A DNA stretch of 63,273 nucleotides, filler included, from Stramenopiles sp. TOSAG23-6 (GCA_900128565.1; 11 parts of 11 records of this genome joined end to end with filler, not necessarily neighbours in it), one strand, 5' to 3'; shown: positions 8,525 through 60,803, counted from the whole stretch's first letter. Notes: generated by a model not told the origin, from the letters alone. Translations and numbers: made by a program.

Positions 8525-10044
8525 ATCATGGGGGAGTTTTGAATAGACATGCCTATGATAGTTTAATGTCTAAACTAAATGTCAATGATGATGATTCTAA
8601 TGATTCTAATGATAATGATTATAATGATAATGATAATGATTATAATCATAATGATAATGATTATAATGATAATGATTATAATCATAATGATTATAATGAT
8701 AATGATGATGATTATAATCATAATGCTGATAATTCTAATGCTGATGATTCTAATGATAATGATTATAATCATAATGCTGATGATTATAATGATCATTCTG
8801 ATAATTCTAATGCTAATGATTATAATCATTATGCTCATGATTCTAATGCTGATGATTATAATCATAATGATAATGATTATAATGCTAATGATTATAATGA
8901 TCATTCTAATGATAATTTAACAATTACTAATAATTATCGAGATAATTCTAATGATGCTAGATTCTTGACCAAAAGAAAAACACATCGTCCATATTCAAGT
9001 AACGTAACGAATGAATATAATTCATTCCATAATAATAATAATAATGATAATAATAATGATAATAATAATAATAATAATAATAATGATAAACGGAGTTCGG
9101 AATTTTGTTCCGATTTCGTGTCGACGTGTGATAAGTTAGAAGGATTTAGAGATAATAATAATAGATTTGAACCTTCAACACAATTTCGTGATGATTTGGT
9201 TGATATATTTGAATCTCCTTCGGATAGTGTCAGTTATACCAAAAATACTGAGAAAAAAAATATGCAAGTCTCATATAGAAAAAATGTACATCTCCAACGA
9301 AGGGAAGAATGTTTTCATCATGAATTTCAAATTTACGTTTTTTTCATACGCTATTTTGTACCTAACGATTATTTTTTTGAAATATTTTTGGACATTACTT
9401 GAATGCGGTGGATTTATTTTTCAAGTAAGTGATAAAACAATGGAACGAACCTCGTATAATTTCAAAACATTTTCGTGTCCTTGCAGTGTGTACGGGTATG
9501 TTTTATTTTTTTTCAAATTCGAGTTTTTTTTTCGTACGAAATTTTGTACCTAACGAAGTTTTTTTGAAATATTTTTCCAAAATACGGGGTACAATACATT
9601 GAAAAGGGAACACCATTATTTGTATATAATGTACGCAAACGTTATATTTCAGGACCTTTTATAGCCAGTTCAGGACCTATTAGAGCCACCTTAGATTCAA
9701 AACAACGTGTAATTGTATGTTCTCATTATGAATTTCAAATTTATTTTTTTTTTCATACGAAATTTTGTACCTAACAAACTTTTTATTTTTGTTTTTTCAC
9801 AATAATACATGTAAAATGGGATGAATGTAATTGGTTTCCCCCAGTATATAAAGTAGTCGGATACAATGTGATTCAAACAGGAATTTTACGTTCGGAAGAT
9901 TTTGAGGAGTTATTTCATCATATTTATCAACATAAAAGAAAGTTGAAGAAAAAAAAACGAAAGCATAAAAAACAAAAAAAGAGGAGTAAAAAACGAGCAA
10001 AATTTACATCTCTTGGCTCAACAACTTTCGCTTGGGGCAGATAA
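8525..10044 (+). CDS. Asn/Asp-rich protein with a DCD (development and cell death)-like domain and basic tail; 5'-truncated; exons 8525-9306, 9401-9495, 9588-9714, 9811-10044
   Basis: The spliced product reads ECGGFIFQVSDKTMER..VYGVQYIEKGTPLFVYNVRKRYISGPFIASS, resembling the DCD pattern GG(Y/F)IF..T..E and LPLFLYN..L.G.FEA. Confidence 0.65.
8578..8915 (+). repeat. Degenerate trinucleotide (AAT/GAT/TAT/CAT) coding microsatellite
   Basis: Encodes an N/D/Y/H-rich tract. Confidence 0.9.
9307..9400 (+). other. Family non-canonical intron (GA..TT, 94 nt)
   Basis: gaa|GAATGTTTTCATCATG..TACCTAAC..CATTACTT|gaatgc; GAATG direct repeat; in-frame join. Confidence 0.75.
9496..9587 (+). other. Family non-canonical intron (GT..GG, 92 nt)
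   Basis: tacgg|GTATGTTTT..CCAAAATACGG|ggta; TACGGG direct repeat; join gives VYGVQYIEKG. Confidence 0.85.
9715..9810 (+). other. Family non-canonical intron (GT..AT, 96 nt)
   Basis: att|GTATGTTC..TACCTAAC..AATACAT|gta aaa tgg; the last exon is open to TAA at 10042-10044. Confidence 0.8.
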
Positions 10045-10218
10045 CAAAAGTCCTCGCTGAACTGTATTTTAACAGAGGCACTTTTCAATTAAAATAAAAT
10101 AAAATTGAATGTATAAAACGGTATAAAACGTGTTTCTTTCATTTTTCGATGTTTTATTATAAAAATTATACTGATAATAACTAATTCAGTTATACTACAT
10201 CATTAGTTATCAATATTA

Positions 10219-13200
10219 TTATCGAATTGTTTGTTTTTTTAATGCCTCTTTATATTGGAACTCGCGTGCATTCAGTGCTGGAGCTAATGTACGTACAAAC
10301 GTGGTTGACGTTGAACCCAATTTTCTTTTTGATTTTTTATCTTTTACTTCAGAATCGGCTGAATTTGGATTCTTCTTGAAGGTGTTATTTACTGCAATTG
10401 TTGTTCCAAACTTTCTTTTTGATGGAAGAAGAGGTTCTGATATTTTGTTGTTGACTAATTTTTTGGTACGATTTTTTTCTCTACGACGATGAAGCATAGC
10501 TTCCCGGACTGAGATCTTTGATTTATCTTTATCTTTGGTTTGAACAGAAGCTTCACTATTCTTTACGCAAATATTGACATCATCAGTTTTTAAATTTTCG
10601 ATTTCATTTACTTTCATACTTTCTTTTTCTTTTGCAAGTATATTTTCTAGACGGTGAATCAAATCATCTCTTCTACCACTGACAGTTCCACCTTTTTCTC
10701 GAAGTGCATCTTTCAACTTTGCACATGTATTGTAAAAAAAATTAAATTCGAAATTGGTTAGGTACAAATTTTCGTACGAAAAATAAATAAATTTGAAATT
10801 CATCATGAAAACGTACATGTCACAGATTTATCAGATTTATCAATACTTCCATCAGATAACCTTTTCAGATTTTGAATCCATTCATTAATACCATTACCAT
10901 CTTTCGTAGAAGGTATAGCTACGTGATTTCTAGTTTGATTATTATCGGAAAGAGATGATGTTCCTAATGAACTATGAAAATTTGATAGACCTTTTCTTTT
11001 TAAGCGACTTGCTAGATCGAGTGAGGTGTCGATATCAACATCCGATGAAGAAGAAAAGTCATCAGTGACATTTGCAGTGCTACCATATGCACCATGTGAA
11101 CTTCTTGTGCCCGCGCTTCCTCTTCTTCGTCTTCGAACTTTACCACCATCAAAGTCGCTGTCATCGTCACAAGCATCATCACCCGTTTCAGGATCATATT
11201 CACTTACATCACCTTCTATCTCACTCCAATCCATATCAGAACCAGAGTCATCCTCCAATTCTGAAAATGAATTTCTCTTTTCTTTTTGATCAGATGAACG
11301 ATTACGTACAGTAACTCTATTTGCGCGACCGAGAGAACCTGTAGATTTTGATGATAGCCTCGGTCTCTTACTAGGAATAGTGTCGTTTGATTGGCGGCGT
11401 TTTGATTGATTGGTTTTATCATCCTTATCAATATTTTCTAGATCCGATGTCTTACGTTTGTGCCCTCGTTTTCTTTTTTGTCTTATTTTGTAAATATTAC
11501 GCATTTTTCTCTGTAATATGAGCTTTGCTCTTTCCAATTTTCGTCTCTCGCGTTCGACGGCTCGTACTCGCGACGCTTCTTCTAGATCTGCACTTACTGC
11601 ATTAACTTGAGCTGAAACTGCAGTTTGAAACAAAAACTTTAATGCTTGCTGAGTGTGACGTACAGTGCGACTCACTGGTCCCCAACGGGAAGACAACATC
11701 GCATTACTTTTGCGGTCATCGAGTTCTAGGATTTGAGATTGAAGACTAGTAATCTTTATCTGTAGACCTTCTTTAGCATCCCGCAATTTTTGCAAGCGTT
11801 CTGTAGCTTTTTTCTTTTCCTCCTGAGCTTGAGTAAACAATGCAGCTTCATCAAATTCAGAAGAAACATTATCTTTATTTGCATTAGTAAGATCTCGCGC
11901 TTTGCTCAATTCGATGCGGCGTTTGCCTAATGATAATTCAGCACGCTGCAAAGCACCTTGTGCCGACGCTATTTGCAATGAAATTTCTTTGCGTCTTTCA
12001 GTCGCAGCATTTAGTCTTGGACGAAGTTGCTTTCCAGCAACTTCAGCAGATAGCATTTTGGATAAGTGTTCTTGTACGCCATTTGGTCCAGAAATATTAA
12101 TTTTTCGTTTTGTATTTGCTTGTCTTTGTCGGGCTTGCTTTGCATTAACTTGCATTTCATGAACCTTTCGGAGACGTTTTCTCGTTGCTGCAGCTTCCGC
12201 GGTCTTTTGACGCAATGCTGCAGTATTCTTACTTTGTTGGCGTTCCAACTTTGCTACTTTGTGACTTTGCTCTCGACCTTGTTTTTGTAATTGTTTCAGC
12301 CGAGTTTCACGAGCCTTAGATTCTTCTCGATGACGTCGAGCAATTTCTTTCTGTTTACGAATGAGTTGAACACGCTGACGTTTCAATGCTTCAATTTGCT
12401 CTCGTGATTTTAAGGCTGATGCTGCCTCTTTTTCTTTACGTCGTAATAATTTTTGTTGTGTCTCAGCTTTATTTTTTACTGTTGTTAACTTCTTTTCGAG
12501 AGCCGCTAGCTGTTGCTTGTAACGACAACGAAGTTGTTTTTGCTTAACTTCTTGTTTATCAGACAACTTTGTGAGTTTTTCATGTAATTTTTTTTTTTGT
12601 TCTGTCAAAGTTGATACATCTTTTTGTAGTGATTTCATAGACGCAACAAGCGCTGCTCGAGTACGTTTTTCTTCAGCAGTTTTTTTAGTTTTATTATCTA
12701 AAGTTTGTTTACCCTTTGATGTGTTGCTGATAAAACCGGAATTGTTTGTTTTATTAATCTTTGCTGCTTCTTTTTGTTTTAGAGCAAGAGTTTCAGTGAG
12801 AACTTTCAACTGTTCAGCTATTGTTTTTTGTTCTTTTTCGTGTAATTCATTTGCTTTCCGACGTTCTTCGCGAGCATTTTCACTTTCTTCATTTTCATCG
12901 TATATAATATCTTCACATTCGCCATTTCCTTCGTTGCTTTTCATTTGGCCGATAGAATCTGGACCATTAAAATCTCCTCTATCAGAGCAAAATGATAACT
13001 TCCAACGAAGTAATTCGAGTTCGGCCTGCATTTCATCGATTTGTGCGGCCGTTTTATTCGTTTTGAATGTACCATTATTTTGTAAAAGATGCTTCAGTTC
13101 TGTATTTTCACGTTTTGCATCAGATAAAAGTGATGCTAGATTTTTATTTTCTTCTAAAGCTTGTGATAGAATATGTATTTTGGAAAAATATTTCACAAAA

Positions 13201-14575
13201 AAAAATCGTTAGGTACAAAATTTCGTACGAAAAATAAATCCGAAATTGAAAAAAAATAAAACATACATAATCACTTTCATCAGACGTTGAAGATCCTGTG
13301 ATTCCTTCTTTATTTCGTGCTCTTGTTTTCACTAATAGCCGCTGTAAAGTTTGTACCTGTGTCCGTAGACGCATTACCTCTGCTGACTCAGCATCGCAGT
13401 TTTGAACTGTTTTATTTTGAATATTTCGGGCACGATTAGCATATCGTAAACAATTAATCGTTTCATCAAAGTTACTGTCCGCAGGTGATATACATGCAAT
13501 CATAAGGGTACGACTATTACCTCCGAGTGAGGACTGTAAAAGTCTAGTGAGTTTAGAGTCTCTATACGGTACATGTATTTTGGGAAAATATGGTCACAAA
13601 AAAAAATCGTTAAATTTTCATAGCAAAAAAAAAGTAAATTTGAAATTGAAGTGAATGTTGAAAACAAACATGAACAGATTGGCGTTTCTTTTCATCACCA
13701 AGTACTGAAATAACATTGCCAAGTGCAAGAAGTCCTGAATTTATAGCAATTCCTTCATGGAGTCTTTTACCCTCGGCCCCAGTGCGTTTAGAACGTTCAC
13801 TCCCAGCAAGATCGACAAGCCGTAATGTAGATCTGCGATAACCAGTATCTCCACTACTATTACTTTCAGTAGTAGCAGCACATTCAATAGTGATATTGAA
13901 TACGGAATGACTACGAGAAGACTGTGCATTCATTTTAGTTCCACCTGTGGCTCTTGCCGTCGCTCCTTGACGAAGGCACGCAGCCATGTCTTGAAGTGTT
14001 GCAACTTTTTCTTCATGCAGACCTGCCACAAAAACAGTTCCAGTGGCGTCTTCTCGAAGTGCTAAAGAATCCCCGGTTGATTTAAGTAAATCGCGTACTT
14101 CATCTCTATATAGTTCTAAGTAAGAGCATGTCATTGTTATCAAAGGTGGTGATGATTCATCTTGTTTAGCGTTTTCCTCAGCAGCTCGAGAGTATAGATA
14201 TTCCATAACTCGAGGAATTACTCCAGCATCTTTACCCAAGGTTGCAGAATCATTTCTACCAGAAGATTCAAATGAAGTTCCCATTGTATGCGTTTTACCG
14301 GAACCAGTTTGACCATATGCAAATACAGTGGCATTGAAACCATCGAAGCAACCTGCGAGAATGGGTTTTACACATTGATCAAACACAGTTGCTTGGGTAG
14401 ACGTTTCAGGTAGTAACACATGGTCGAAAGTAAACTTTTTTTTAGCGCCCAGTAACAGAGCTGGTTCATTTGGAACTCCCTCTACACACAATTGTGCCCC
14501 TTCGGTGAGCTCATGTTCAAGAAGCGGGCGCACGCGCACAGCTACACGAACAGAAGCTTGATCCGACATTGTCAT
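10219..14575 (-). CDS. Kinesin-4 (chromokinesin/KIF4-like) with a C-terminal SAP domain; exons 14575-13670, 13572-13267, 13172-10817, 10724-10219
   Basis: [32 protein letters not shown] and [16 protein letters not shown]. Splicing restores [39 protein letters not shown]. Long coiled coil; SAP-like [28 protein letters not shown]. Confidence 0.92.
10725..10816 (-). other. Family non-canonical intron (GT..AT, 92 nt)
   Basis: acat|GTACGTTTT..AATACAT|gtgca; ACATGT direct repeat; restores the SAP domain. Confidence 0.85.
13173..13266 (-). other. Family non-canonical intron (GT..AT, 94 nt)
   Basis: tat|GTATGTTTT..CCAAAATACAT|att cta; joins two kinesin ORFs in frame. Confidence 0.88.
13573..13669 (-). 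other. Family non-canonical intron (GT..AT, 97 nt) inside the kinesin motor
   Basis: cat|GTTTGTTTT..CCCAAAATACAT|gta ccg tat aga gac restores the conserved HVPYRDS. No AG-ending register keeps this motif. Confidence 0.93.
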
Positions 14576-14940: not shown

Positions 14941-16673
14941 ATGACGGTGGAAGATAATCCATGTGTGGTGTATGGAGCCCGTTCAGCTATCGTGGCGTTT
15001 TGGATCACGTTAAATTCAGAAGCTTCCAAAATAGACACCACGAAACTTCTCGAATTACTCGAAACTGAGGATATTGCTCCGGTCTTTGAACATTCATTTA
15101 GTTTGAAGGAAGTTTCTTTTGAAAGAAATGGTAAACAATTCACAAAGGTTTCGGGTTTCATACATTTTCAAGCGTTCAACCGTCTACAAGTCTGCCAAAC
15201 TGCTTTAGATATATTACCAGGTTTAGCAACTCTAATACATGGATGCGAAAGATTTGAAGTAGAATCGGTTTTCCCCAGTCGATCAGGCACTCGTGATAAG
15301 GAACCAATTCATACTATGGTCAGAAATATTCCAAAGAATGATCGCGAGGCAATGAAGAAATTGAAAAAGAGTATGGTGAAGCAAATTTTTCAAGTAGTTT
15401 TTGGCCCTAATTCGAATTCAATTGGGTACATGCTGAAACTTGCGTCATATATTGCAACACTTAATAATGATGATGTTTCTCTCATGTTGAAGTTGTATGA
15501 AAAAAAAAATACCTCGACTCGAATCAACGGATCAACTGACGAAAGTACGTTTACCTTCTTTTTATACCTTTTTTTTGTAACTAACAAACATGATGAATTT
15601 TGAATTTATTTTTTGCTATTATTTTTATATTTGTACCATACCCAAGCTAACTATTGTTTTTACTAAAAAAAATATTTTTCTCAAATATATGTTGCTGGAG
15701 AGAATTTGTTGGTAATTTCCTCTCATCCAGAGGTAATCTATTATTAGAAAAGGCAAGACAAGTTGATAGAAATGACACAATTAATGCATGTTTAATTTTT
15801 TTCAAATTCCGTTTTTTTTTGTAAGAAATTTTGTACCTAACGATTTGGTTTTGAAATATTTTTCCAAAATACATGCATTAGTAGGCGAAATTGTCAAACC
15901 AGCTGGATGCTCTACAGTTCGCGAGCAGTATATTGCCGGAGTGTTTGATGAACATACAGCCCTGTCTCATTATGGTGTGATGGTGTCTTGGCCTTGTTTC
16001 TGTTGTGAAACAAAGCAAAACAGTTCTGTACAAAATGATACATTTGAAGAAGGTCCATCTGCCAAGCGTCAGAAAACTGATGAAACTGATGATACATCGA
16101 TCAAAAAAGATGATACATCCATCAAAAAAGATAAAGGTTCTGTTACTAATGATGAAAATGGTAAATGTGAGGTTTGCAATCTTGTAGATAGTTTCGATAA
16201 TTTTGGTGAAAATATTAAAAACTTTTTCGAAAAAAAATTCTCTGCGTATAGAGTCAAAGTGAAAAATATTACAATGTGTTACAATAGTATGACAGCCATG
16301 GTGTATTTTGAGGATTGTACGTTTTCATCATGAATGTATTAATTTAATTTTTTTTATAGTTGATTTGTACCTAACAAAAATTAAAAAAAATATATCTCCA
16401 AACAATTTATGTTGTCCAGCATTTCAAAGGTTGAAAATTCGTGGTACTCCTGAATTTATATACACTCCTTCAGTAACTGCTCAAGCTGTCAGTCGTTTAG
16501 TACTTGTCGATCCAGAGATTATAGAGGAAAAACTTCACGATTGTATTACAAATTCGATAAAAAACAAAAAAAAGCAACCTGACGATGATGATGATGATGA
16601 TGATGAGATGAAACAAACGAAGTCAATCGATGTTGATGACCTTGGAATTGAGTTTGACACTAGTCGAATAGAT
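14941..16673 (+). CDS. Hypothetical protein, 3'-truncated; exons 14941-15544, 15691-15785, 15875-16316, 16411-16673
   Basis: Four segments form one open frame after removing family introns; no recognised domain; start codon uncertain. Confidence 0.6.
15545..15690 (+). other. Degenerate family intron (GT..AT, 146 nt)
   Basis: a|GTACGTTT..GCTAAC..CTCAAATATAT|gt tgc; in-frame join. Confidence 0.7.
15786..15874 (+). other. Family non-canonical intron (GC..AT, 89 nt)
   Basis: aat|GCATGTTT..AAAATACAT|gcatta; ATGCAT direct repeat. Confidence 0.8.
16317..16410 (+). other. Family non-canonical intron (GT..AT, 94 nt)
   Basis: t|GTACGTTTTCATCATG..TACCTAAC..CAATTTAT|gt tgt; in-frame join. Confidence 0.75.
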
Positions 16674-29834: not shown

Positions 29835-32800
29835 ATGGCTTCCGTGCCAAAAAAAGCGTCAAAGCTTGCAAAGATCACTGCGTTGGATGTAAGTTTTGGT
29901 ACAGCGTTGGCTCAAAAAGCTCGAACAAAGCTGCATAAAAATGTCAATAGACTTGCAGATGTTCCCACATATGTTTGGATTCATCATGGTACAACTGCAA
30001 ATGGTGTAACTGATATCCGAATCTTGATGGGTGATTCTGCAACGCCTTCAGGGTTTGTCAAGATCCCTCGTGACCTCAGCCAGGGTTCAGAACCAAAAAC
30101 TTTCCTGTGCTATAAAACTTGTCCACAATCTGAAGCTGATCCTATTACTGGTATAGAGATTGTATATGACGATGAAGCTCCTCCTCCAGGATATGAAAAG
30201 ATTTCTGATTCTCTTGCTGGAGATAATGATAGGGTATATTTGTGTTATACTCGGCAGGAAGCTGGGGGAGCAGAAGATGTTTGTTTTCATCATGAATTTT
30301 TCAACTTTACGGTTTTGTACCAAATCTAAGTATCTCACAAATTTCAAAGTTTAGACATATTTTTTCACTACCAGGATTGTTGGTCGGCGCATGATCTTGT
30401 TATTGGTGATTTTGTAGATTGTACCGACACCGTAGGCAAGTGGTGCAGTGCACAGGTGATTCAGGTAATTAGCGAATCCCAGGAAATTAGAATTCATTAT
30501 CAGGGTTGGAGCGCCAAATGGGACGAGGTAATCCCAATGAGTTCCAGCCGTCTTGCTCGCAGTGGTCGACATGTAAAGGGTTCCACTGGGCAGACACAGC
30601 AAATTGGATTTGATTGGTCAACTCAGCACGATGAAGAAGAATTAGATATTAGAATAGAACAAGTGAATCAACTCATTGAAGGAAAACTTCCTGGTGGTGA
30701 GGAGTCTACTGCTTGGCAAATGGAAATCGATTTCTTTACACAGAATTGTCTCAAAGGAAATTTACCTCCAGGTTTAGATAAGAAGGTAGGAATATTCTTA
30801 CAAGCTATAATAAGGCTAGTAGCCCAACGGTTGAAATGCATAGATGAACCGCTCAGTGAACGCATGTGCAGTGCGATGAAACTATCTCTGGGTGCAGACC
30901 CCCAGCACGTATATTTCTTTAATACATATGGTAGAATGAGTACCAGTTCTCGAATGGGAGACTTATTTGGAATCACTCAGCCGTGTGACGGAGAATATGC
31001 CGTACAAGATGCTCGATCATCCATGTATTTAGTTGCAAATATAAATTTATTTGGGAAATTAGGTGGTTTTCAAGCAATTATGGATCGAATTTTACAAAGA
31101 GGTTCAGACGATGATAGTATTTCATCGAAGGGTTTGCATCTATCCAAAGAAAGCCTTAATGGTACGTTTTCATCATGATGAATTTCGAATTTTGTTTTTG
31201 TAGTAAATTTTGTACCTAACAAAAACATTTTTAAACATTTTTTTTTCAATACATGTGTTGATCATCATGTTCCGTCACTTCCTACTCCAACTCATGAGAT
31301 GATTGGTAATGAGAATCATGTTACTGATGAAGTTCAAAAAAATGAAACACCCAATACAAATAAAGAAGATCCTAACCCTAACGGTAACATTATTGTTACT
31401 GAAGATGATACAGAGGAAACTCTGCTAGTACATATATGTGTTATGTTTTTTCAAATTCGATTTTTTTTCGTACGAAATTTTGTACCTAACAATTTTTTAA
31501 ATATTTTTTTTTAAATATATTTCCGAAATACATTCTTCAATAGGAAAAGTGAATGGTTGTGGTACTACCGGTAAAAAAATATCTCTACAGGAGTTAAGTT
31601 GTATCATTTTGTCTTTAAGATTTGGCTGTGATACTTTTTCTGCCAAATTTAAAAAATTATATTTCGAAAAATTTTCTGATGCTGTTGTTACCAGGCTGTT
31701 GTCATTGACCGAAGCAGAACTTCGTGGCCTTGAAGAAAATACTCTCCATGACACTGTTCGAACACTTGGTGACCTTTTGACTACTGTTTTGAAAGGCAAT
31801 GTATGTTTATAGGATCAATTTTAAATTCATTTATTTTTTTATAGAAAATTTTATACCTAACAAAAAAATTGAAAATATTTTCCTAAAGTACATGCTGTAG
31901 ATAAAATGACTGAGACATTTGCGCTTGCCTTTGCTCTTCGTTTAATGAGATCAACTCAGTTAGCTAAAAGAAATCGCGGACTTGACCAGTTATTGGAAAT
32001 GGTTGATAGAGTTTTACGTAAGGAACGTAGAGATGCTTGTACTTTTTTTTTACAAAGAAAATTCATTTAATTTATTTTTTACAAAGAATTTTTTTTCTCT
32101 AACACATTTCGAATTTGACATATTTTTCACAATATGTTCTCGGCACATGGTGGAAGTATTGCAATGGCTGGTGATAGTAATTTTGGTTCAATAAATCAAG
32201 GTGTCAATGGTAGTCATGGCATTGGTGGGGTGTATGCTCGAAGACAAGTTGGCCGTTGGGATGCTCCACAAAAAAAAACCAAATGGGTAACTGTGGCTTG
32301 GCTTTCAAAATGGATCGCACAAAATCGTGTTTTGGAAACGCATGTATGTTTTATTTTTTTTCAAATTCCAAATTTTTTTTTTTATAAAAATTTTGTACCT
32401 AACAAAAAAACATTTGAAATATTTTTCCAAAATACATGTCTCAGGTCACGACTCCGAATTACGTCGTTGCGATAATTTACTTCAATTCCAGGCTGCTGAG
32501 GGCAATCTATCTGGAGAAGTTCTGTCTATTTTATGGAAACAAGTACACGAAGCTGTTCCTGCTCGCGTGGAGGCCGTCCATGTCATTGTGGAACACTTAC
32601 TCGAGCTATTGGATGTTTCTCAGATGCGTGAATTATTTGCATTGGTAAAGAAAACTGTTCTAACTACGGAAGCATGTACTATTTTAAGAAGATTTACGAG
32701 GTATGGAGTAGCAAAGGAGTCTGAAATGTATGGCAATGATCCCAGTAAGCAAAGTGAACGTTGTTGGTACGCTCTTCCGTTATTTTGGGACGTTCTTCAA

Positions 32801-34308: not shown

Positions 34309-35659
34309 ATGTCACTCATTAGATCAACAGAAATAGAAGATTCAAGTCCCAATCTTGTGAATCTTTCTAAGAACAAGACGACCACTTTCGGCAGGGTCAA
34401 CGCTACTGTAATACTCCATGATCCAAGAGCTTTTTATGTCTCGCGGCTCCACGCGAAAATCGTTCTTGAGACGGAAACCAATACCAAAGGGAAGCAATAT
34501 AAATTAATAGATTTAAATAGTACAAATGGAACATTCTTGAATAGTATTCGAATAAAACCCTCGCCTGAATCATATACACTCAAAAAAAACGATATCATTG
34601 TATTCGGCGGTGGTGGGAGATTACCAGTTGGTGCAAAACTAGATCAACCAAATAGCAGTTATCGCTACACTTTTAGTAGTGATACTCTGTCGAATGAAAC
34701 ACCCGATCCATTAATAGATAGAACAAATACAAACGAAATGATGGACTTACTCGGATCGTGTCCCCCGCGAAAACGTTCCAGGCTAATGACAACGAAGATT
34801 TCAAACTCAATAACACCGATAATCTGCACTAGTAGTAGTAGTGTAACATCGAAAATAAATAAAGTGGATATAGACAAAGATGTAGTAGCTTCCAAAATGC
34901 GCTTTGAATTAGAACAACTTAAAAAGATTTCGTCAGAAAAGCAAAAAAAGCATCTTCAAGAGATTGCTGAAAAAAATGAAAAATTAAGAGATATGGAAGC
35001 AAAACAGAAAATTATGTTGTCCAAATCGTCAAAACTAGAAGACACTTATGAATGTGAACAATGTTACAATGTATTTGTATATGCTCTTCAACTTCCATGT
35101 TGTGGTAATGCAATTTGCTTTTCATGTTGGAATACTTGGTGTGATGTTTGTGAGAAGGGAAAAAAACAAAAAACATGTATAAAATGCAGAGCTGAAAATT
35201 CTAGATTTCTTCCACGAGCTTTGGTCATTGATAAAGCAATTGAAGTCTTATACGACTCATGGGATTCTGATACCAAACAAGAGTTTGATGAACGAAAGAG
35301 ATTATCTAAAGAAGATATGCATAACCGAGAACGTGCTAAGAAAGAGAAGAATAATATTGCTACTGCTTGTGAAAATGAAGGTATGTTTTTTTTTTTTTCA
35401 AATTCGAAATTTGTTTCGTACGAAATTTTGTACCTAACGATTTTTTTTTGAAATATTTTTCTAAAATACAGTTATCATCGTTGATTCTGATGATGAATTA
35501 AGAAGAAATAGAAATAGTCTTCGAAGTAGATCATTAAATCAAGGAGGTAGTATTGCTTTATTTTTTCATCCATTTCGTAGTGATAACAATGGTAACCCTA
35601 ACCCTAATGAAGAACCTCTGTCTCGAATAGATGATAAAGGCGTTATTGAAATTCTGTAG
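34309..35659 (+). CDS. FHA plus RING E3 ligase (RNF8/CHFR-like) with SIM-like motifs; exons 34309-35380 and 35472-35659
   Basis: FHA motifs FGR, VSRLHA and DLNSTNGTFLN; RING CEQC..LPCCGNAICFSC..CIKC; exon 2 begins VIIVDSDDE. Confidence 0.8.
35381..35471 (+). other. Family intron ending in AG, matching the AG at the end of the upstream exon (GT..AG, 91 nt)
   Basis: gaag|GTATGTTTT..CTAAAATACAG|ttatc. Confidence 0.9.
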
Positions 35660-35717
35660 GTTAATAAGACATAAAATTAAAACTTTTCAACATTTTTTTT
35701 AGATAATCTTTCTTTCA

Positions 35718-39031: not shown

Positions 39032-41004
39032 ATGACACGGAATGAAACTTGGAAGAACAAAGTTAGTAATGGGATATTGTCGCTAAAAGAGAAAGGCGCT
39101 ATTCTTATTGAGAAGTTTAACCAACAGATACACGTTTCAGATCCTCTATTGAAAAAAAACGGTGTTTTAGGTGCCGGTACAGAATTTCCATATAATGCTG
39201 GTGCTGAAGAGCTTGCACTACACCAGTTAATTGTTCGCCGCAAAAACCTCATGCTTAATAGAGACAAAAACATTAGTCCAGATGCCGTTACATTGTCACC
39301 TCCAACTGAAATTTGTATTGCTGGTCATCATATAGAAGGTTCTACTGCTTTTTTCCATCTCGCAGTTCGTTATGGAAAGCGTATCAATGGTATTGGTGAA
39401 TTACCGTATCCCTTTGATATGCCTCAGAAAGTACTCCGCCGTTATTCTGACTTTTCATTTTTCTTTCGTCGTCACCATTTGCTCAATACCACTAATCAAG
39501 TACGAGATAAAAACACAGTGTTGCCTCCAATTCCAAAACTTCCCGTCGATTTAGATGGAAATTATTTCGAAAAAATAACTAACGATACAATCTCTCGCCG
39601 TATTGAGGGTCTACAAAATTATGTCAATTGTCTCTTGCACCAGGCGAACCATCCAAAAACACCTGATAAAACGCTTCAAAAGCTTCTCTTGGAGTTCCTG
39701 GGGACAATTATTTCTGACAATAGAGACAAAAGTGGAAATTTCTTACGAGGGACAAACACTATGAAAGATTCTCGTTTTCTTCGAATTCGGGAGCGTCGTA
39801 TGAGTGATGCAATGAATAGCACACAAGTGCCCATAAATATCTATTGGCTTCGTCATGGAATGTCGTGTGCAAATGTGTGTATGTGATCTTAGTGATTGGA
39901 AACTTCACGATACACGAAATCATGAAAAAACATTTTTTTTTTCATAGTAAATTTCGTACCTAACGTGTTTTCATGATTTTTTATTGTACTATGTGATCTA
40001 TGATCATCTATCATTGATTTGATTTGATTTGAATTAAATTCTTTTTACTATGAAAATTTTATACCTAACGAATTTCGAATTTGACATATATTTGAAAAAC
40101 CATTGCAATATCTTGGGAAATCTTGGCATGCTTTTCCACCGGGTGACTACCGAAATTCTTTAGTTCCAGATGCTCAGTTGAGTGATATTGGTGTACAACA
40201 ATGTTTATTTTGTAAAGAAAAGACGGAAACTTTATATGTTTTCACAATTCATTTCAAATTTAATTTTTTTTTTTTGAAAATTTTGTACCTAACGATTTTT
40301 TTACAAAAAAATATTTTTCACAATACATATTCTCAGATTCAATTCATATATATTGCAGTTCCCAGCTTACACGTGCTATTGAAACTGCAATATTTGCATT
40401 TCCTGATGATGTGATTATGTATGTTTTATTTTTTTTCAATTTCGATTTTTTTTCGTACGAAATTTTGTACCTAACGGGGTTTTTTTTTTGAAATATTTTT
40501 CCAAAATACATTCATGTAATTCCTGGCGTATGTGAGAAAAGAAGACCTTTAGGGTATGACCTTGATAATCAACCAAGGGATGCAGAGACATTGTTACGCT
40601 ATTTTTCTGGTATAGAAAAAGAGGAGACAAATGAATCAAAAACTAATGAATCAAAAACTAATGAATCAAAAACTAATGAATTTAAAACTAATGAATCAAA
40701 AACTAATAAAATAATTCCCCAAATGCCTTGCTCAATGAAGCAATCTAAAGTAAGTGCTGGTGGTTATTTTAAAGTTCCTAAAGAAGCCCAGCCTGTTAAT
40801 AAACAACTAAACTGGGAATTTTTTGATGCACCTCGAAGTGCTGATAAAACTGACCCAGAGCACTTTTATCAAGTTGTTCTGCCAAAACTAGTATATAAAG
40901 TATTACAGGCAGATCCGACAGTACCAGTAGTTAATATTGCAATTGCAAGTCATCAACATTTTATTATGGATGTTTTAAAAACATCTGTTGGAGAATCGGA
41001 TAAT
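39032..41004 (+). CDS. PX domain plus histidine phosphatase (phosphoglycerate-mutase superfamily); exons 39032-39878, 40104-40233, 40329-40418, 40512-41004
   Basis: PX motifs VLRRYSDF, PKLP and RRIEGLQNYV; phosphatase motifs WLRHG, DAQLSDIGVQQ, SSQLTRAIETA and IASHQHF join in frame after intron removal. Confidence 0.8.
39879..40103 (+). other. Long family intron (GT..AT, 225 nt) with two TACCTAAC motifs
   Basis: t|GTATGTG..AAAAACCAT|tg caa; in-frame join. Confidence 0.7.
40234..40328 (+). other. Family non-canonical intron (AT..AT, 95 nt)
   Basis: tt|ATATGTTTTCA..CAATACAT|a ttc; gives normal spacing between DxxLSxxG and SSxLxRA. Confidence 0.75.
40419..40511 (+). other. Family non-canonical intron (GT..AT, 93 nt)
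   Basis: at|GTATGTTTT..CCAAAATACAT|t cat gta. Confidence 0.85.
40630..40707 (+). repeat. 15-bp coding tandem repeat (NESKT about 5 times)
   Basis: aatgaatcaaaaact units. Confidence 0.85.
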
Positions 41005-41096
41005 GTACGTTTTATTTTTTTTCAATTTCGAATTTATTTTTCGTACGAAAATTTGTACCTAACGATTTTTTTTTTTAATATTTTTTCACAATACAT
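41005..41096 (+). other. Family intron joining the histidine-phosphatase exon to a phospholipase C exon
   Basis: aat|GTACGTTTT..CACAATACAT|cct att gga. Confidence 0.75.
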
Positions 41097-41756
41097 CCTA
41101 TTGGACTTGGTTGGCGTGTACCAATGTTTTTAATATCACCGTGGTCACGTGGAGATTATGTATTTTCCGAAGTTGCTGATCATACCAGTGTAATTCAGTT
41201 TATTGAGAAAAGATTTAATGTACATTGCCCAAATATTTCACCATGGCGACGTGCAGTGACGTCTGATTTAATTGCAGCTTTTGATTTTACACATCCTGAT
41301 TTTTCTTGGCCGAAATTGCCTTCAACAAAAGGAAATGTCGAAGCATCAAAAGAACAATGCAGTAATGATCCGCCTCCTACTATACCTTCTATTCAAAGTA
41401 TTCCAAAACAAGAACCAGGAACAAAGCTGCTCAGACCCATACCTTCGTATGTATTTGATATAAAAGAATCTGTTGATTATAATGGAGAAAAGATATCTTT
41501 AACTATATCTCATCGTGGAGAGGATAATGCAACTGCTGGACATTTTAATGTGTATGTTTTATTTTTTTTCAATTTTTTTTTCGTACGAAATTTTGTACCT
41601 AACGAATTTTTTTTCAATTTAGAATTTATTTTTCCAAAATACATGTATAATCATATAAACAACAATGTGAGAAAGTATACAGTTGAAGGGACAAAACAAT
41701 TAACGGGTACCTGGTCTACTGAAAACCCATTAGGAGAATATTCTCTTTATCTTCAT
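41097..41756 (+). CDS. C-terminal part of a bacterial-type phospholipase C (phosphoesterase family plus DUF756-like domain); exons 41097-41551 and 41645-41756
   Basis: PIGLGWRVPMFLISPWSRG..SEVADHTSVIQFIEKRF..PNISPWRRAVTSDL..AFDF; HFNVY..RKYTVE..W..GEYSLYLH. Confidence 0.85.
41552..41644 (+). other. Family intron (GT..AT, 93 nt, in frame and stop-free)
   Basis: gt|GTATGTTTT..AAAATACAT|gtat; the ORF reads through it, but removal restores the DUF756-like spacing. Confidence 0.75.
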
Positions 41757-41921
41757 GTACATTAATTATCATTCATTTCAATTTCGGATTTTTTTTTGTA
41801 CCAAATTTCGTACCTAACAAANNNNNNNNNNNNNNNNNNNNNNNNNNNNNNNNNNNNNNNNNNNNTTAATTAATTAANNNNNNNNNNNNNNNNNNNNNNN
41901 NNNNNNNNNNNNNNNNNNNNN

Positions 41922-43198: not shown

Positions 43199-43591
43199 GT
43201 CTTACTTCCATATATAATCTACACAAAACCGTCAAATATCCAACCTTGTGTATGCACTTTTAGATGCTGGACTTTATTATTAAAGGTGGTTAAGGCGTAC
43301 TAGTCAAAAAAAAAGAGATCAAAAAAGCTAAAAAAATATTCCAATTTACAATTTAAAAATTGGTCGCAAAATCTCATCAAGGGGTGAAATTGGTCAGAGA
43401 TTCGATTGTAAAATTTTTGTTTTGACGTTTTTCATTTTGTTTTTTCATTTTGTACGAAAATTTTATACTTAAAGCGACACACGACAGTTTGTTTGACTCG
43501 GGAGGAAGAGAAGAAAATCTTTTCTTGGAGAGAGAGAATACAATACTGATCTTTTGTTTTAAACTTTTAGTCCTCTCTCTACATGTAAACA

Positions 43592-45858: not shown

Positions 45859-45909
45859 GTATGTTTTTTTTGACTATGAAAAATTTTGTACCCAACAAAA
45901 AATCAAAAA

Positions 45910-45940
<31 letters not shown>

Positions 45941-46150
45941 CTTTGTTTTTTTTTTTCTATGAAATTTTTTGCCTAACAAATTTTTTTTTTTAAATATTTT
46001 NNNNNNNNNNNNNNNNNNNNNNNNNNNNNNNNNNNNNNNNNNNNNNNNNNNNNNNNNNNNNNNNNNNNNNNNNNNNNNNNNNNNNNNNNNAAAATATTTA
46101 AAAAAAAAAATTTGTTAGGCAAAAAATTTCATAGAAAAAAAAAAACAAAG

Positions 46151-46181
<31 letters not shown>

Positions 46182-49100: not shown

Positions 49101-50269
49101 TCGAATATGCAAAAGTATATGATTGCATTATTACTGTAGAAAGTTGTACTCAATTCCAGATGGACCGTCCAATGCCTCTAGAAAGCAGAAACAATGAGTT
49201 CTATATTTGTGTCTATTCAAATTGGCGTGGTCCTCTAGATAACATACCATACGATAGCATATCTATATATGCATATCCCTTGTCTTATCCATTATACAAA
49301 GATAAAATTCATGATGAAACATGGATGCATAAATGTAGTAACAAACCAGTTTTTGGGGACAACAACAACAACAACAAGCAAACTTGGATGAATCCTAACC
49401 CTAATTTGTTTACAAAAAAGACGAATTTGAAGAATTATGTACCCAATTTCATTCTTTCCCTTCATGAAAATGATACAACAATGTGTTATATAAGCATAGG
49501 CTATCACCATAGGATATATTTACTTGAATTACTTTGTACAAATCAAAATCAGATGTCTCAAAATTCTGAAAAACACAAAAATCATAAAAAATATGAAAAA
49601 GACAAAACTTGTAAAACATTAGCTATTTTGAATATACCGAATACATATGATGACTATATTTGTCATGTTACNTATTNTACTTTTTNGTAATACTATTTTG
49701 TATTCATTAGGTACAAAAATAGGTAGAAATATTTTTTCAGGTAGTCGTATTTTTATGCTTCAGCTTCCAAAGAAATCTTTAGGTATCAATATTCGTACGA
49801 ATATTAAAAAAAATAAAAAAAATAAAACGTTTCAATGGAATGATCATAAGGAAAATTGTATTAATGACGAAACAGAAATGAATATTTTTTTTTATGAAGA
49901 TGGAAATCAACAAAAAACACAAAAAACACGAAATGTAAAAAATAATCCTAGCACATCACTCAATGTAAAACATCAAAATTCTTTTGACGATCTAACAGGT
50001 TGGTATGAAGATATTCACATAAACAATAATAATAATAATAATAATAGTAATAATAATAGTAATAATAATACATCTAATACATCTGATAATTTGTCATTCA
50101 ATTCTAGCCCTAATCCTAGAAAAATTGAAATTCAACTATTTAGTGATCATCAACAGAATACACATAAAANNNNNNNNNNNNNNNNNNNNNNNNNNNNNNN
50201 NNNNNNNNNNNNNTTAATTAATTAANNNNNNNNNNNNNNNNNNNNNNNNNNNNNNNNNNNNNNNNNNNN

Positions 50270-58502: not shown

Positions 58503-59825
58503 NNNNNNNNNNNNNNNNNNNNNNNNNNNNNNNNNNNNNNNNNNNNTTAATTAATTAANNNNNNNNNNNNNNNNNNNNNNNNNNNNNNNNNNNNNNNNNN
58601 NNTTTTCATCATGGTGGTGGAGGAGGGGGAGAGGAGGATGATGATGATTACCACTATCCTCCTCTGCAAGAACAGTGTCACACCATCTACAGTATAAAAT
58701 ACAAATTATTTTATACCTGGTGGTTTCAGGTAGTAATAAAGCTATTTTAGTATATTATAATAATAAAAAAACAAAGAAGAAGAAGAAACTCTTCTTTAAA
58801 AAAAAATAACAAACAACAGCAGGGGGAATGATAAATTCACGCAAGATTTTTTCGAATTATTTTTTTAATTATTTATTATTACATACGAGGACTGTAGTAT
58901 TTATTTATTAAAAAAAGTAATCAGACCTATTATTATACGACTAGTAATATATCATAGTCTAATAATAGATACGTCATTTTTTGTTTTCATTGTTCTGTGT
59001 TCTGTGTACTCCACTCCTTCTTCTTTCTTTCCTTCTTTCTTTCCTTCTTTCTGTAGTGGAGTATGATCATTACTCGTATTTGACTTAAAGTTGCATCTAC
59101 ACAGGTAGTAACTTTCTTTTAACTAGTCCTATAATTATTAAAAATTATAATACATAGGCGTAGTCTAGGAAGTGCGGTCAAGAACTGTAGTCTTTTATGT
59201 CATAGTCCTCCTTGAAAAAAACTAATAAATAAAAAGAGGAGTTTAAATTGATTTGACTTTGTGCCTTCTTATTTTGACTCTACCGGTACGTACCGTAAAT
59301 AGACTAATATAAGTGGACTAAGTATTTGAAGAGGAGAGAAAGAGAGGTGTACAGAGGATATTATACAATGTTTATACATATTATACGACGTACTGGTGGA
59401 GAGATAGATGGTGGGGATTGTATTATATTATTTAGACTACTAATAAATAATGATTCATCACACACAACCAAGCAAGACCGCATCATCGATCACATCTCAA
59501 CAACGAACAACAACAACAACAAACGAAATAAAAAAAATGATTTATTTCTTTTTTTTTTTTTATTATAGATCCTCGTATACTGTACCATATTGGTAGAAGT
59601 CTAGAGAAGAAGAAGACGATTAATAATAATTATATAATTTTTTTATTATTTAATTTTATTATTAATTATATACAGTATACTGTATTATTTTTTTANNNNN
59701 NNNNNNNNNNNNNNNNNNNNNNNNNNNNNNNNNNNNNNNTTAATTAATTAANNNNNNNNNNNNNNNNNNNNNNNNNNNNNNNNNNNNNNNNNNNNTTTTT
59801 TTTGAAAAAAAAAAAAAAAACATAC

Positions 59826-60803
59826 ATTTGGAACTCTACTTTAAAAGTATAATCACCTCGTCGAAATCTCTTGTCTGTTCCAGTAACTTTAATTAAAGCG
59901 ATATAGTCATATTGTTTGTCTATACTAGAATGAAACATTTCGTTCATTGTTTTAGTCCTGAAATTAGGATAAAGTGGTTCATTACCGATTTCTGGGTACA
60001 CGCGATTAAATTTACTTTGATAACTTTTGACGGCATGTATTTTGGAAAAATAATTTGAAAAAAAAATTTTAAAAAAATTGTTAGGTACAAAATTTACTAT
60101 AAAAAAAAATTCGATTTTTTTTTTACCGGAAAAAAAAAAAAAATAAAACATACATCTCTAAACTCTTCCAAGCCCCTTTTAAAAATTGGATTTTGGATAG
60201 TTCTTTGAAGAAATTCTTTCATCTCGTGTGGAGAGTGGATAATCCTTTGAAGATATACTTTCATTTTGTGTGGTGAATCGATTAAGATTATGTATTGTAA
60301 AACATATTTTACATTTGAAATATGTTAATAAAAAATTGTAATGCATGAAATTTGACACAAAGAAAATAAATTCGAAATTGAATTTTGGAATGAATGATGA
60401 AAACGTATTTAAAAGACGATGTCACAGTTTTCGCACTCACAATGTAAGGGTTATCATCTGCATTAAAGACCAAAACAAAATCTTCTCGAAGTCCATTTTC
60501 GACAGCGGCAAAACTCTGTACCACATCAAAGTAAACAACTTCTTCACTTTCAGCCTCAGGAGACACATTTATTTTGGGAAAATATTGTTAGGTACAAAAT
60601 TTCGTATGAAAAATAAATTCGATTTTTGTGTTAAAAAAAAAATAAAACATACATGGGGCCAAGTCTTAGTTAGTTGCACTCGCTTCCCAGCAGTTACTGA
60701 TAACTGCGATATCGGGTTTTCCAGAAAATTGTGATGCGGGTACATTGATCTGAGTTGCGACATAGGAATGTCGTGTCTTTTAACAGCGCCCCTGTACGGG
60801 TGA
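59826..60803 (-). CDS. Internal exons of a hypothetical gene (60803-60653, 60566-60409, 60289-60154, 60034-59826) separated by family introns
   Basis: Introns 60567-60652 (GT..AT), 60290-60408 (AT..AT) and 60035-60153 (GT..AT) give one open frame; partial copies sit at both contig ends. Confidence 0.7.

What the first reader, a model, noticed from the sequence alone, without database searches (positions are those of the whole stretch)
9307..60408. The donor dinucleotide also varies (GT, GC, GA, AT) and often mirrors the start of the next exon
Seen: GAATGT at 9307 (next exon gaatg), GCATGT at 15786 (next exon gcat), ATATGT at 40234 (next exon at) and at 31434, and ATACGT at 60408 on minus. Positions +3 to +9 (A(T/C)GTTTT) stay conserved. 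Established: +1G is close to invariant in U2 introns. Inference: neither terminal dinucleotide is fixed, and internal motifs set both ends.
Basis: partly seen in the sequence, partly recalled or inferred. Interest (0 to 1): 0.75.

Follow-up and report, generated by a model that had tools for sequence, protein, structure and literature searches.

The report
Repeated transposon-like introns with odd ends
The five odd "donors" are worn copies of one short repeated element that sits inside genes of an AT-rich marine eukaryote and is removed as an intron ending in AT instead of AG; whether their cut really starts at a non-GT letter is still open.

Summary
All five hexamers are at the stated coordinates. 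They are not independent oddities. Each is the 5' end of a copy of one ~90-120 nt repeat family (core TTTGTACCTAAC[GA]A: 37 hits against 0.66 expected; 40 profile hits).

In 22 full-length copies, removing the family-homologous segment joins the longest flanking reading frames in 20 of 22. That segment reads XY|GTAYGTTTT..CCTAAC..ATAC-XY|.

Seawater RNA contigs from three runs skip one copy (41551-41643) in exactly that register class. No AG or AC end is possible there.

The two letters before the intron equal its last two in 15 of 22 copies, including AG/AG and GG/GG. This looks like a 2-nt target-site duplication, as in introner or MITE-derived introns.

The first dinucleotide is GT in 17 of 22 copies. 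The five exceptions are one-base variants.
- At 9307 and 15786, a mirrored 4-5 nt makes a GT donor 4 nt downstream give the same mRNA, so cDNA cannot decide.
- At 31434, 40234 and 60408, an in-frame GT..AC alternative exists and I could not obtain RNA.

This is a known kind of system.

The parts
9307..9400 (+). Site 1. Family copy at homologous boundaries, GA..TT, 94 nt. Equivalent registers include 9311..9404 (aat|GT..AAT|). An in-frame alternative is 9311..9398 (GT..AC).
   Evidence: profile 3-90, E 4e-10; links ORFs of 816 and 150 nt.
15786..15874 (+). Site 2. Family copy, GC..AT, 89 nt. Flanked by AT/AT. The repeat ATGCAT allows registers from AT..AC to GT..AT (cat|GT..CAT|).
   Evidence: (profile 2-92, E 5e-14).
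31434..31533 (+). Site 4. Family copy, AT..AT, 100 nt. There is no GT register. In-frame alternatives are 31438..31531 (tat|GT..TAC|, +2 codons) and 31428..31533 (cta|GT..CAT|, -2 codons).
   Evidence: (E 1e-11).
40234..40328 (+). Site 3. Family copy, AT..AT, 95 nt. There is no GT register. In-frame alternatives are 40238..40326 (tat|GT..TAC|) and the canonical 40212..40336 (GT..AG).
   Evidence: (E 5e-7).
60290..60408 (-). Site 5. Diverged family copy, AT..AT at homologous boundaries, 119 nt. The alternative 60404..60292 (tac|GT..TAC|, 113 nt) is the register class that carries the AATAC repeat.
   Evidence: (alignment). The profile hit is only weak (E 1.3).
41552..41644 (+). Reference copy with RNA evidence, GT..AT, 93 nt. 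Contigs join 41550 to 41644. The equivalent registers are TG-CA, GT-AT, TA-TG, AT-GT, TG-TA and GT-AT; none ends in AG or AC. An internal TAG is not used.
   Evidence: table 8, records 14 (X2), 22 (X3) and 29 (X4).
13573..13669 (-). Family copy inside a kinesin motor domain, GT..AT, 97 nt. The join gives ..SVH|VPYRDS.., colinear with the Pfam profile (H at 276, V at 277).
35381..35471 (+). Family copy whose last two letters are AG and whose preceding exon also ends in AG (GT..AG). It is informative for the 2-nt duplication.
9496..9587 (+). Family copy ending ..ATACGG after an exon ending in GG (GT..GG at homologous boundaries). An in-frame alternative 3' end ACAT| lies at 9599.
10725..10816 (-). 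Standard copy GT..AT in the chromokinesin-like gene. It links ORFs of 2392 and 503 nt.
13173..13266 (-). Standard copy GT..AT, flanks AT/AT.
32344..32437 (+). Standard copy GT..AT, flanks AT/AT, repeat CATGT.
40419..40511 (+). Standard copy GT..AT, 91 nt downstream of site 3 in the same gene.
41005..41096 (+). Standard copy GT..AT. Its two flanks probably do not belong together (assembly join through the repeat).

Best explanation
The five sites are diverged copies of one short (about 86-119 nt) transposon-like intron family, an 'introner' or MITE-derived intron. The family is scattered through the coding exons of an AT-rich (about 33% G+C) marine eukaryote.

The element carries its own 5' signal (GTAYGTTTT), a branch-point-like CCTAAC 34-47 nt from its 3' end, a T-rich tract and a terminal ATAC. 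Insertion duplicates two target letters, mostly AT.

Splicing removes the element plus one copy of the duplicated pair. The intron therefore begins with the element's GT and ends with the duplicated pair (AT, once AG), not with AG.

The non-GT 'donors' are single-base changes (G to A three times, T to C once, T to A once) at the element's first two letters in older copies. The 'mirroring' comes from the duplicated pair plus resemblance between the insertion site and the element end.

Shown:
- family membership
- frame-restoring removal at homologous boundaries
- the non-AG end in one copy, by RNA
- the 2-nt duplication

Inferred:
- that a spliceosome does the removal
- where the cut falls in the five sites

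My reading of the five sites:
- 9307 is as well read as an ordinary GT..AT intron shifted by 4 nt.
- 15786 is most simply a GC donor.
- The three A-first copies are cut at the homologous A (AT..AT) with about 50% probability, use the GT 4 nt downstream with an AC end with about 35%, and do something else with about 15%.
For: Family:
- The core motif gives 37 hits against 0.66 expected.
- A profile built from 14 copies finds 40 hits at E<1e-3 in 63 kb.
- The window is a chain of unlinked contigs, so the copies sample the genome widely.
- RNA-contig depth over copies reaches thousands in runs X1 and X3.

Removal:
- Homologous boundaries link the longest upstream and downstream ORFs in 20 of 22 full copies, where chance would give one third.
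- Three RNA contigs from three runs (two studies) skip 41551-41643, which is 93 nt. This fits the homologous register class and not the 87-nt GT..AC form.
- The Pfam kinesin profile is joined without gap at 13669..13573.

Duplication:
- The last 2 nt of the upstream exon equal the last 2 nt of the intron in 15 of 22 copies. These include the only complete copies ending in AG and GG. In 20000 permutations the share reaching 15 was 0.005.

Splice signals:
- GTAYGT is present in 17 of 22 copies.
- CTAAC or TTAAC is present in 20 of 22, and 16 of 22 have no AG between it and the 3' end.

Against: - No RNA was obtained for any of the five sites. The single read-laying run covered 40234, but no shown record spans it.
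- Only one copy has direct RNA support.
- 7 of 22 copies lack a matching 2-nt flank.
- The GG end has an in-frame standard alternative 12 nt downstream, so the variety at the 3' end is thin: AT 19, AG 1, GG 1 and TT 1.
- The perfect 4-nt mirror in both G[A/C] copies (3 of 22 copies overall, permutation share 0.01) is not explained by a 2-nt duplication. It hints that the downstream GT matters there.
- The assembly is poor: it contains palindromic contigs and one probably chimeric join at a repeat copy. Some flanks may therefore be mispaired.
- No transposase, autonomous partner or empty site was seen.
Confidence: 0.7

Rival explanations
1. All five sites use GT donors. The apparent GA/GC/AT starts are exon letters, and the real intron starts at the invariant GT four letters downstream (family positions +5 and +6). 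It would be paired with an ..AAT| or ..CAT| end at 9307 and 15786 (same mRNA), and with an ..ATAC| end at 31434, 40234 and 60408 (mRNA longer by 2 codons).
For: - A GT register exists at 9307, 15786 and 60408.
- The 2nd-GT..AC form is in frame and free of stops at all five sites.
- G5 and T6 are nearly invariant in the family, whereas G1 and T2 are not.
- Both G[A/C] copies have a perfect 4-nt mirror that makes the shift silent.
Against: - The downstream GT lacks the +5 G of the family's own 5' motif.
- An ..AC| end is not seen where it can be tested. The RNA-supported copy excludes it, and the kinesin join would gain two residues between profile positions 276 and 277.
- A simultaneous shift of both ends has to be assumed.
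Confidence: 0.3
2. The family is processed by a minor-spliceosome-like (U12-type-like) system. Such systems naturally accept A or G at +1 and a range of 3' ends (GT-AT, AT-AT, GT-AG), as in the expanded Physarum system.
For: - The 5' consensus [AG]TAYGTTTT resembles [AG]TATC[CT]TTT in 6-7 of 9 places.
- The Physarum preprint 10.1101/2020.10.12.336362 (passages read) gives that U12-type motif. It lists AT-AG, AT-AA, GT-AT and AT-AT as the main non-canonical U12-type boundary pairs.
Against: - Positions +5 and +6 are G and T, not C and C/T, which makes the site a perfect GTATGT major-type 5' site.
- The CCTAAC motif lies 34-47 nt from the 3' end in 19 of 22 copies, not about 10-26 nt.
- The majority termini are GT-AT, not GT-AG or AT-AC.
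- No snRNA could be looked for, because no genome is held and no Rfam family matched in the window.
Confidence: 0.08
3. The ends are set by pairing of the intron termini (inverted repeats bring the two cut sites together), as in euglenid nonconventional introns or the hairpin model for Amoebophrya introners. Terminal dinucleotides would then be free to vary as long as they pair (G1-U, A1-U; U2-A, A2-U).
For: - In the consensus, 8 of the first 9 letters can pair with the last 9.
- The three G-to-A changes keep a pair with the last U.
- Site 1 has a double change, U-A to A-U.
Against: - RNAalifold predicts no consensus structure.
- Eight single copies fold no better than shuffles, with z-scores from -1.19 to +0.76.
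- The covariation score is reached by 48 of 500 shuffles, and there is only 1 double change.
- The copies ending AG and GG break the first pair.
Confidence: 0.05
4. The five odd copies are not functional introns. They would be sequence or assembly errors in a poor draft, or dead genes, and the frame continuity would be accidental.
For: The assembly contains an exact palindromic contig, inverted contig ends and a probably chimeric join at a repeat copy.
Against: - All five link the longest flanking ORFs (5 of 5).
- The changes lie next to unique exon sequence.
- Three independent copies share the same G-to-A change.
Confidence: 0.05

Closest known systems
Introner elements / MITE-derived introns of Micromonas pusilla and Aureococcus anophagefferens (Huff et al. 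2016, as summarised in the review PMC11282704, passages read)
   Same: - Many near-identical short introns at unrelated gene positions.
- Short direct repeats at the borders.
- One splice site carried by the element and the other lying in the duplicated target.
- Removal restores the coding sequence.
   Different: - There the duplication is 3 or 8 nt and supplies a canonical AG. Here it is 2 nt, mostly AT, so the intron ends in AT.
- No transposase or empty site was seen here.
Non-canonical introns of the larvacean Fritillaria borealis and relatives (NAR 2026, PMC13326754, sections 4 and 21 read; review PMC11282704)
   Same: - Transposon-derived introns with non-AG 3' ends (AC, AT).
- A pyrimidine-A-pyrimidine triplet as the last three letters (here CAT in 18 of 22).
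- A repeat of that triplet before the 5' site (here YAY in 7 of 22, NAT in 14 of 22).
- Border ambiguity that those authors resolve with consensus rules.
   Different: - The main classes there start with AG (AG/AC, AG/AT). Here the start is GT with a full GTAYGT motif.
- The organism here looks like a protist rather than a tunicate. This rests on leads only: a phosphoesterase-family gene and PRP38 nearest to apicomplexan and diatom clusters.
Introner elements of Amoebophrya A25/A120 (BMC Biol 2021, PMC7789003, passages read)
   Same: - A marine protist.
- Repeated non-canonical introns with 3-5 nt direct repeats overlapping the borders.
- Terminal inverted repeats.
- Border position left ambiguous by the repeats.
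   Different: - There no splice signature stands out and U1 was not found. Here there is a strong GTAYGT and a CTAAC branch-like motif.
- The genome there is G+C-rich (passage gives about 54-58% for some genes); here G+C is about 33%.
- The hairpin is not supported here.
Introner-like elements of dinoflagellates (Symbiodinium, Polarella; preprint 10.1101/2020.10.14.339549, passages read)
   Same: - The donor dinucleotide varies (GT, GC, GA).
- The first 4 intron letters equal the first 4 letters of the next exon, because the 5' site is one copy of a 4-nt duplication.
   Different: - There the mirror is the rule and the 3' end is AG inside the element.
- Here the full 4-nt mirror is found in only 3 of 22 copies.
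- Here GTAY belongs to the element, since it is kept where the next exon starts CCTA, ATTC or TGGT.
U12-type introns, including the expanded Physarum set (preprint 10.1101/2020.10.12.336362, passages read)
   Same: A or G at +1, an extended T-rich 5' motif, and tolerated ends such as GT-AT and AT-AT.
   Different: The 5' motif differs at +5/+6. The branch-like motif lies too far from the 3' end. The majority termini differ.

Membership tests
Introner / transposon-derived intron | Many similar copies serving as introns at unrelated positions in different genes | tested here: met
   40 profile hits at E<1e-3. 22 full copies lie in at least 10 genes on unlinked contigs.
Introner / transposon-derived intron | Target-site duplication at the borders | tested here: met
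   2-nt match in 15 of 22 copies, including AG/AG and GG/GG. The permutation share is 0.005. 7 of 22 copies do not match.
Introner / transposon-derived intron | Terminal inverted repeats | tested here: inconclusive
   In the consensus, 8 of 9 terminal letters are complementary. The letters are A/T-rich and there is no support beyond the consensus.
Introner / transposon-derived intron | Precise removal from mRNA | tested here: met
   RNA contigs from 3 runs skip 41551-41643. Frames are linked in 20 of 22 copies. Direct RNA exists for 1 of 22 copies only.
Introner / transposon-derived intron | Mobility: autonomous partner, empty sites or presence/absence polymorphism | not testable with these tools
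   No genome is held. Two scans of metagenome contigs found nothing.
Major (U2-type) spliceosomal intron | GT..AG termini | tested here: not met
   GT at the 5' end in 17 of 22 copies, but AG at the 3' end in only 1 of 22. The RNA-supported copy has no AG register.
Major (U2-type) spliceosomal intron | Extended 5' motif and branch-point motif fit for U1/U6 and U2 | tested here: met
   GTAYGT in 17 of 22 copies, with +3, +5 and +6 nearly invariant. CTAAC or TTAAC in 20 of 22, 22-47 nt from the 3' end. That these letters fit the snRNAs is from general knowledge; the snRNAs were not seen.
Minor (U12-type) intron | 5' motif [AG]TATCCTT | tested here: not met
   The consensus is [AG]TAYGTTTT, with G and T at +5 and +6.
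Minor (U12-type) intron | Branch motif TCCTTAAC close to the 3' end | tested here: not met
   CCTAAC lies 34-47 nt from the end in 19 of 22 copies.
Minor (U12-type) intron | Presence of U11, U12, U4atac and U6atac | not testable with these tools
   No genome is held. Nothing from Rfam matched in the window.
Euglenid-type nonconventional intron | Stable pairing of the intron ends that juxtaposes the cut sites | tested here: not met
   no consensus structure; z-scores -1.19 to +0.76; 48 of 500 shuffles reach the covariation score.
Fritillaria-type non-canonical intron | YAY triplet before the 5' site and as the last three letters; AG/AC or AG/AT termini | tested here: inconclusive
   The last three letters are CAT in 18 of 22 copies. 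YAY precedes the intron in 7 of 22. The 5' start is GT, not AG.
Dinoflagellate ILE with donor taken from a 4-nt duplication | First 4 intron letters equal the first 4 letters of the next exon | tested here: inconclusive
   A full match occurs in 3 of 22 copies (9307, 15786, 41552), with permutation share 0.01. In the other 19 copies the match is 0-3 of 4.

The most novel reading that the evidence does not exclude
In this organism both cut sites of the family would be placed by internal intron motifs: the 5' block at +3 to +9, and a 3' cut two letters past ATAC. The terminal dinucleotides themselves would be irrelevant. A spliceosome would then remove AT..AT, GC..AT and GA..TT introns as readily as GT..AT ones, and any 2-nt target duplication could serve as a 3' splice site.
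Probability: 0.3. Interest if true: 0.7.

Novelty: new member of a known kind. Interest (0 to 1): 0.45.

Why it matters
Transposon-derived introns with non-canonical borders are known from only a few lineages: Fritillaria, Amoebophrya, dinoflagellates and euglenids. They are the best living models for how introns spread and how far a spliceosome can relax the GT/AG rule.

This window adds a family with a clean, yeast-like 5' site and branch motif but an AT 3' end that appears to be the duplicated target. It comes from an unidentified AT-rich marine eukaryote whose transcripts occur in seawater metatranscriptomes.

If the three A-first copies are really cut at the A, the organism tolerates changes at the most conserved intron position. 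That would make it a useful natural experiment.

For annotation the practical point is immediate. Gene finders that insist on GT/AG will break most genes of this genome.

Tried and rejected
RNA for the five sites:
That range covers 40234, but no shown record spans that site. Parts without cover say nothing.

Spliced forms from protein collections:
- The exon after 31434 found no protein (48-156 aa only).
- The exon before 40234 found none (47-153 aa only).
- A 29-aa query was too short.

Other copies or transcripts in public contigs:
- A protein scan and a 22-nt element scan of metagenome contigs both found nothing.

Other dead ends:
- There are no Rfam families and no tRNAs in the window.
- ORF continuity alone is a weak guide to exact borders, because thousands of in-frame pairs exist per copy.
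- A hairpin or terminal-stem mechanism was tested and not supported.
- I rejected the idea that the element is GTTTT..ATAC with a 6-nt duplication. GTAY is kept where the next exon starts with unrelated letters, and the RNA-supported copy excludes the GT..AC form.
- A 14-letter loose end from run X2 has no match in the window.

Taxon: two Atlas look-ups gave only leads. UCH37 was nearest chordate and diatom clusters. PRP38 was nearest apicomplexan and diatom clusters.

Literature: no paper in the library holds both 'introner' and 'GT-AT'.
Full report
**1. What the window is**

The window has about 33% G+C. It is not one stretch of chromosome. It is a chain of contigs joined by N44-TTAATTAATTAA-N44 linkers at 8367, 16749, 25118, 33472, 41822, 50170, 58503, 59696, 60889 and 62082.

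One contig is an exact palindrome: 41922-46000 is the reverse complement of 46091-50169, 4079 of 4079 letters. The first contig's first 200 letters are the reverse complement of its last 200. The assembly is therefore a rough draft, and the copies described below sample unlinked parts of the genome.

The genes are eukaryotic and densely packed. They include two kinesins, a protein kinase, FKBP, RRP4, PRP38, an FHA protein, a PX-domain protein and a FYVE/ankyrin/PH protein, and a UCH-type hydrolase. No tRNA gene or Rfam family is present.

**2. The observation**

The five are not separate curiosities. Each is the start of a copy of one repeat.

- The core TTTGTACCTAACGA occurs 37 times at up to 2 mismatches, against 0.66 expected.
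- A profile built from 14 clear copies finds 40 places at E<1e-3, a few of them duplicates from the palindromic contig.
- That profile aligns 15786, 31434, 9307 and 40234 from model position 2-3 to 90-92.
- 60408 is a very diverged member. The profile hit is weak (E 1.3), but the ends align.

**3. Anatomy of the family**

The consensus of 22 full-length copies is GTATGTTTTATTTTTTTTC..AATTTCGAATTTATTTTTCGTACGAAATTTTGTACCTAAC[GA]A..T-rich..AAATATTTTTCCAAAATACAT. A second subfamily starts GTACGTTTTCATCATGAATTTC.

Positions +3, +5, +6, +7 and +8 are at least 90% conserved. Position +1 is G in all but three copies, and +2 is T in all but two.

A CTAAC or TTAAC motif is present in 20 of 22 copies. 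Its adenosine lies 34-47 nt from the 3' end in 19 copies and 22 nt in one. In 16 of 22 copies there is no AG at all between it and the end.

**4. Are they removed, and where?**

Frames. I took the longest open frame upstream and, independently, the longest one downstream. Removing exactly the homologous segment makes them continuous in 20 of 22 copies. Chance would give one in three. The two misses have very short flanking exons. All five sites of the finding are among the 20.

RNA. The look-up of sequencing runs returned seawater metatranscriptomes. In the one read-laying run allowed (33572-41821, runs X1-X4), three contigs from three runs (two studies) run 41382/41408/41448..41550 and continue at 41644 without extra letters. 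They skip 93 nt (table 8, records 14, 22 and 29).
- The equivalent registers are TG-CA, GT-AT, TA-TG, AT-GT, TG-TA and GT-AT. None ends in AG or AC.
- An internal TAG is passed over.
- Only the family-homologous class fits. The 87-nt form 'second GT to ATAC' does not.

Protein colinearity. In the chromokinesin-like gene, the exon before the copy at 13669..13573 ends at the histidine that Pfam aligns to kinesin profile position 276. The next exon starts at the valine aligned to 277. The join gives ..SVH|VPYRDS... The 'second GT..AC' form would insert two residues there.

Together these make GT..(AC)AT the working description of the standard copies.

**5. Why the borders mirror each other**

The two letters before the intron equal the last two letters of the intron in 15 of 22 copies. 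Most are AT/AT. The only complete copies that end otherwise match too: AG/AG at 35381..35471 and GG/GG at 9496..9587. Site 1 (AA/TT) does not match.

Shuffling the partners among copies reaches 15 full matches in 0.5% of 20000 trials. This is the signature of a 2-nt target-site duplication. The excised segment is the element (GT..AC) plus one copy of the duplicated pair, which restores the gene as it was before insertion. The '3' splice-site dinucleotide' is then simply the target, usually AT.

Two caveats apply. The GG case has an in-frame alternative end at a standard ACAT 12 nt further on. Seven copies lack a match.

A second, weaker signal exists. The first four intron letters equal the first four letters of the next exon in 3 of 22 copies: 9307, 15786 and the RNA-supported 41552 (permutation share 0.01). 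Several others have 3 of 4. GTAY is kept in copies whose next exon starts CCTA, ATTC or TGGT. It therefore belongs to the element, and the extra matches look like a preference for targets that resemble ..AT|GT...

**6. The five sites**

At the homologous boundaries they read GA..TT (9307..9400), GC..AT (15786..15874), AT..AT (31434..31533), AT..AT (40234..40328) and AT..AT (60408..60290, minus strand).

- 9307 and 15786. The mirrored GAAT(G) and GCAT allow the cut to be slid 4 nt to aat|GT..AAT| and cat|GT..CAT| with the same mRNA. For 9307 the shifted reading also has the usual AT/AT flanks, so it is as good as an ordinary GT..AT intron. For 15786 the homologous reading has the usual AT/AT flanks and a GC donor, the commonest tolerated variant of GT (general knowledge).
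- 31434 and 40234. No GT register exists for the homologous mRNA.
- 60408. The GT register (tac|GT..TAC|) belongs to a different mRNA, 6 nt longer.

In every copy the form 'second GT..ATAC|' differs from the homologous form by 4+2 = 6 nt. It is therefore always in frame, and it is free of stops at all five sites.

I could not obtain RNA for any of these. The laid region contains 40234, but no shown record spans it. Two searches of the protein collection for spliced products found nothing.

Arguments for A-first cuts at the homologous place:
- The 3' cut after ACAT is the only one with evidence.
- The downstream GT lacks the +5 G.
- Three independent copies carry the same change and still join frames.

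Arguments for the downstream GT:
- G5 and T6 are invariant.
- The two G[A/C] copies both have the rare perfect mirror.

I put about 50% on AT..AT, 35% on GT..AC and 15% on something else.

**7. Mechanisms considered**

- Major-type spliceosome with a relaxed 3' end. The perfect GTAYGT and the CTAAC motif point this way, and this is my preferred reading.
- Minor-type (U12-like) system. It would explain A or G at +1 and ends such as GT-AT and AT-AT, which are the commonest non-canonical U12-type pairs in Physarum (passages of 10.1101/2020.10.12.336362). Against it, +5/+6 are GT rather than CC/CT, and the branch-like motif lies too far from the end.
- Pairing of the intron ends. In the consensus, 8 of the first 9 letters can pair with the last 9. 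RNAalifold finds no structure, single copies fold no better than shuffles, and covariation is not beyond shuffles.
- DNA-level excision. This is not excluded by contigs alone but is unlikely given the splice-like motifs.

**8. Comparison with what is known**

The system belongs with transposon-derived introns. The closest described cases are:
- Micromonas and Aureococcus introners, where one splice site lies in the element and the other in the duplication (review PMC11282704, passages).
- Dinoflagellate introner-like elements. Their donor (GT, GC or GA) is one copy of a 4-nt duplication and therefore mirrors the next exon (preprint 10.1101/2020.10.14.339549, passages).
- Amoebophrya introners, with 3-5 nt direct repeats over ambiguous borders (PMC7789003, passages).
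- Fritillaria borealis and relatives, with AC/AT 3' ends derived from a repeated exonic triplet, where ambiguous borders had to be fixed by consensus rules (PMC13326754, sections 4 and 21 and passages).

What is particular here is the combination of a strong canonical-looking 5' site and branch motif with an AT end that is the 2-nt duplication.

No paper in the library holds both 'introner' and 'GT-AT'. That does not show the organism is undescribed, because I could not name it. The Atlas gave only leads.

**9. Verdict**

The non-AG end is real. Variable donors are possible at three or four sites, but at two sites they may be an artefact of where the border is drawn within a repeat.
- The thing itself is a new member of a known kind.

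Noticed in passing
window 41922-50169: One contig is an exact palindrome. 41922-46000 is the reverse complement of 46091-50169 (4079 of 4079 letters) around a 90-N gap. It looks like an assembly or whole-genome-amplification chimera, and every feature in it is counted twice.
   Followed up: yes
window 1-200 and 8167-8366: The first contig's first 200 letters are the reverse complement of its last 200. The stretch includes a family copy and its exon flank.
   Followed up: yes
window 8367, 16749, 25118, 33472, 41822, 50170, 58503, 59696, 60889, 62082: N44-TTAATTAATTAA-N44 linkers join contigs of about 8.25 kb and then 1.09 kb, apparently sorted by size. Neighbouring contigs are therefore not physically linked. 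Many contig ends fall inside family copies (for example 8466, 16748, 33571, 41821, 62081), so the repeat breaks the assembly.
   Followed up: partly
window 41005-41096 and flanks: The exon after this copy is only the last 42 positions of a Pfam Phosphoesterase domain (profile 314-355). The exons before it belong to a PX-domain gene. One RNA contig (run X2) that matches 41095-41333 carries 14 other letters upstream, and these are found nowhere in the window. The two flanks were probably joined wrongly through the repeat.
   Followed up: partly
window 33572-33846, 35222-35496, 40447-40721, 41547-41821: Summed RNA-contig depth over family copies reaches about 1200-7600 in runs X1 and X3, against about 0-10 over exons. 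The family, or its relatives, is very abundant in seawater metatranscriptome assemblies, as unspliced RNA, excised introns or DNA carry-over.
   Followed up: no
window 41552-41644: The RNA-supported intron contains a TAG 22 nt before its real end, and the three contigs do not use it. It would be out of frame.
   Followed up: partly
window 8491-9306: A long asparagine/aspartate-rich low-complexity coding stretch (NDNDYNHN.. repeats) precedes site 1. This is typical of A+T-rich protist genomes.
   Followed up: no
window 40620-40710: Five tandem copies of a 15-nt unit encode (E/F)(S)KTN repeats in the exon after 40511.
   Followed up: no
window 30283-30368, 33420-33471, 59825, 61162, 61472, 61715: Further probable family starts (GTGTGTTTTCATCATGAA.. 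or GTATGTTTT) fall below the profile threshold or are cut by contig ends. The true density is higher than the 40 hits counted.
   Followed up: no
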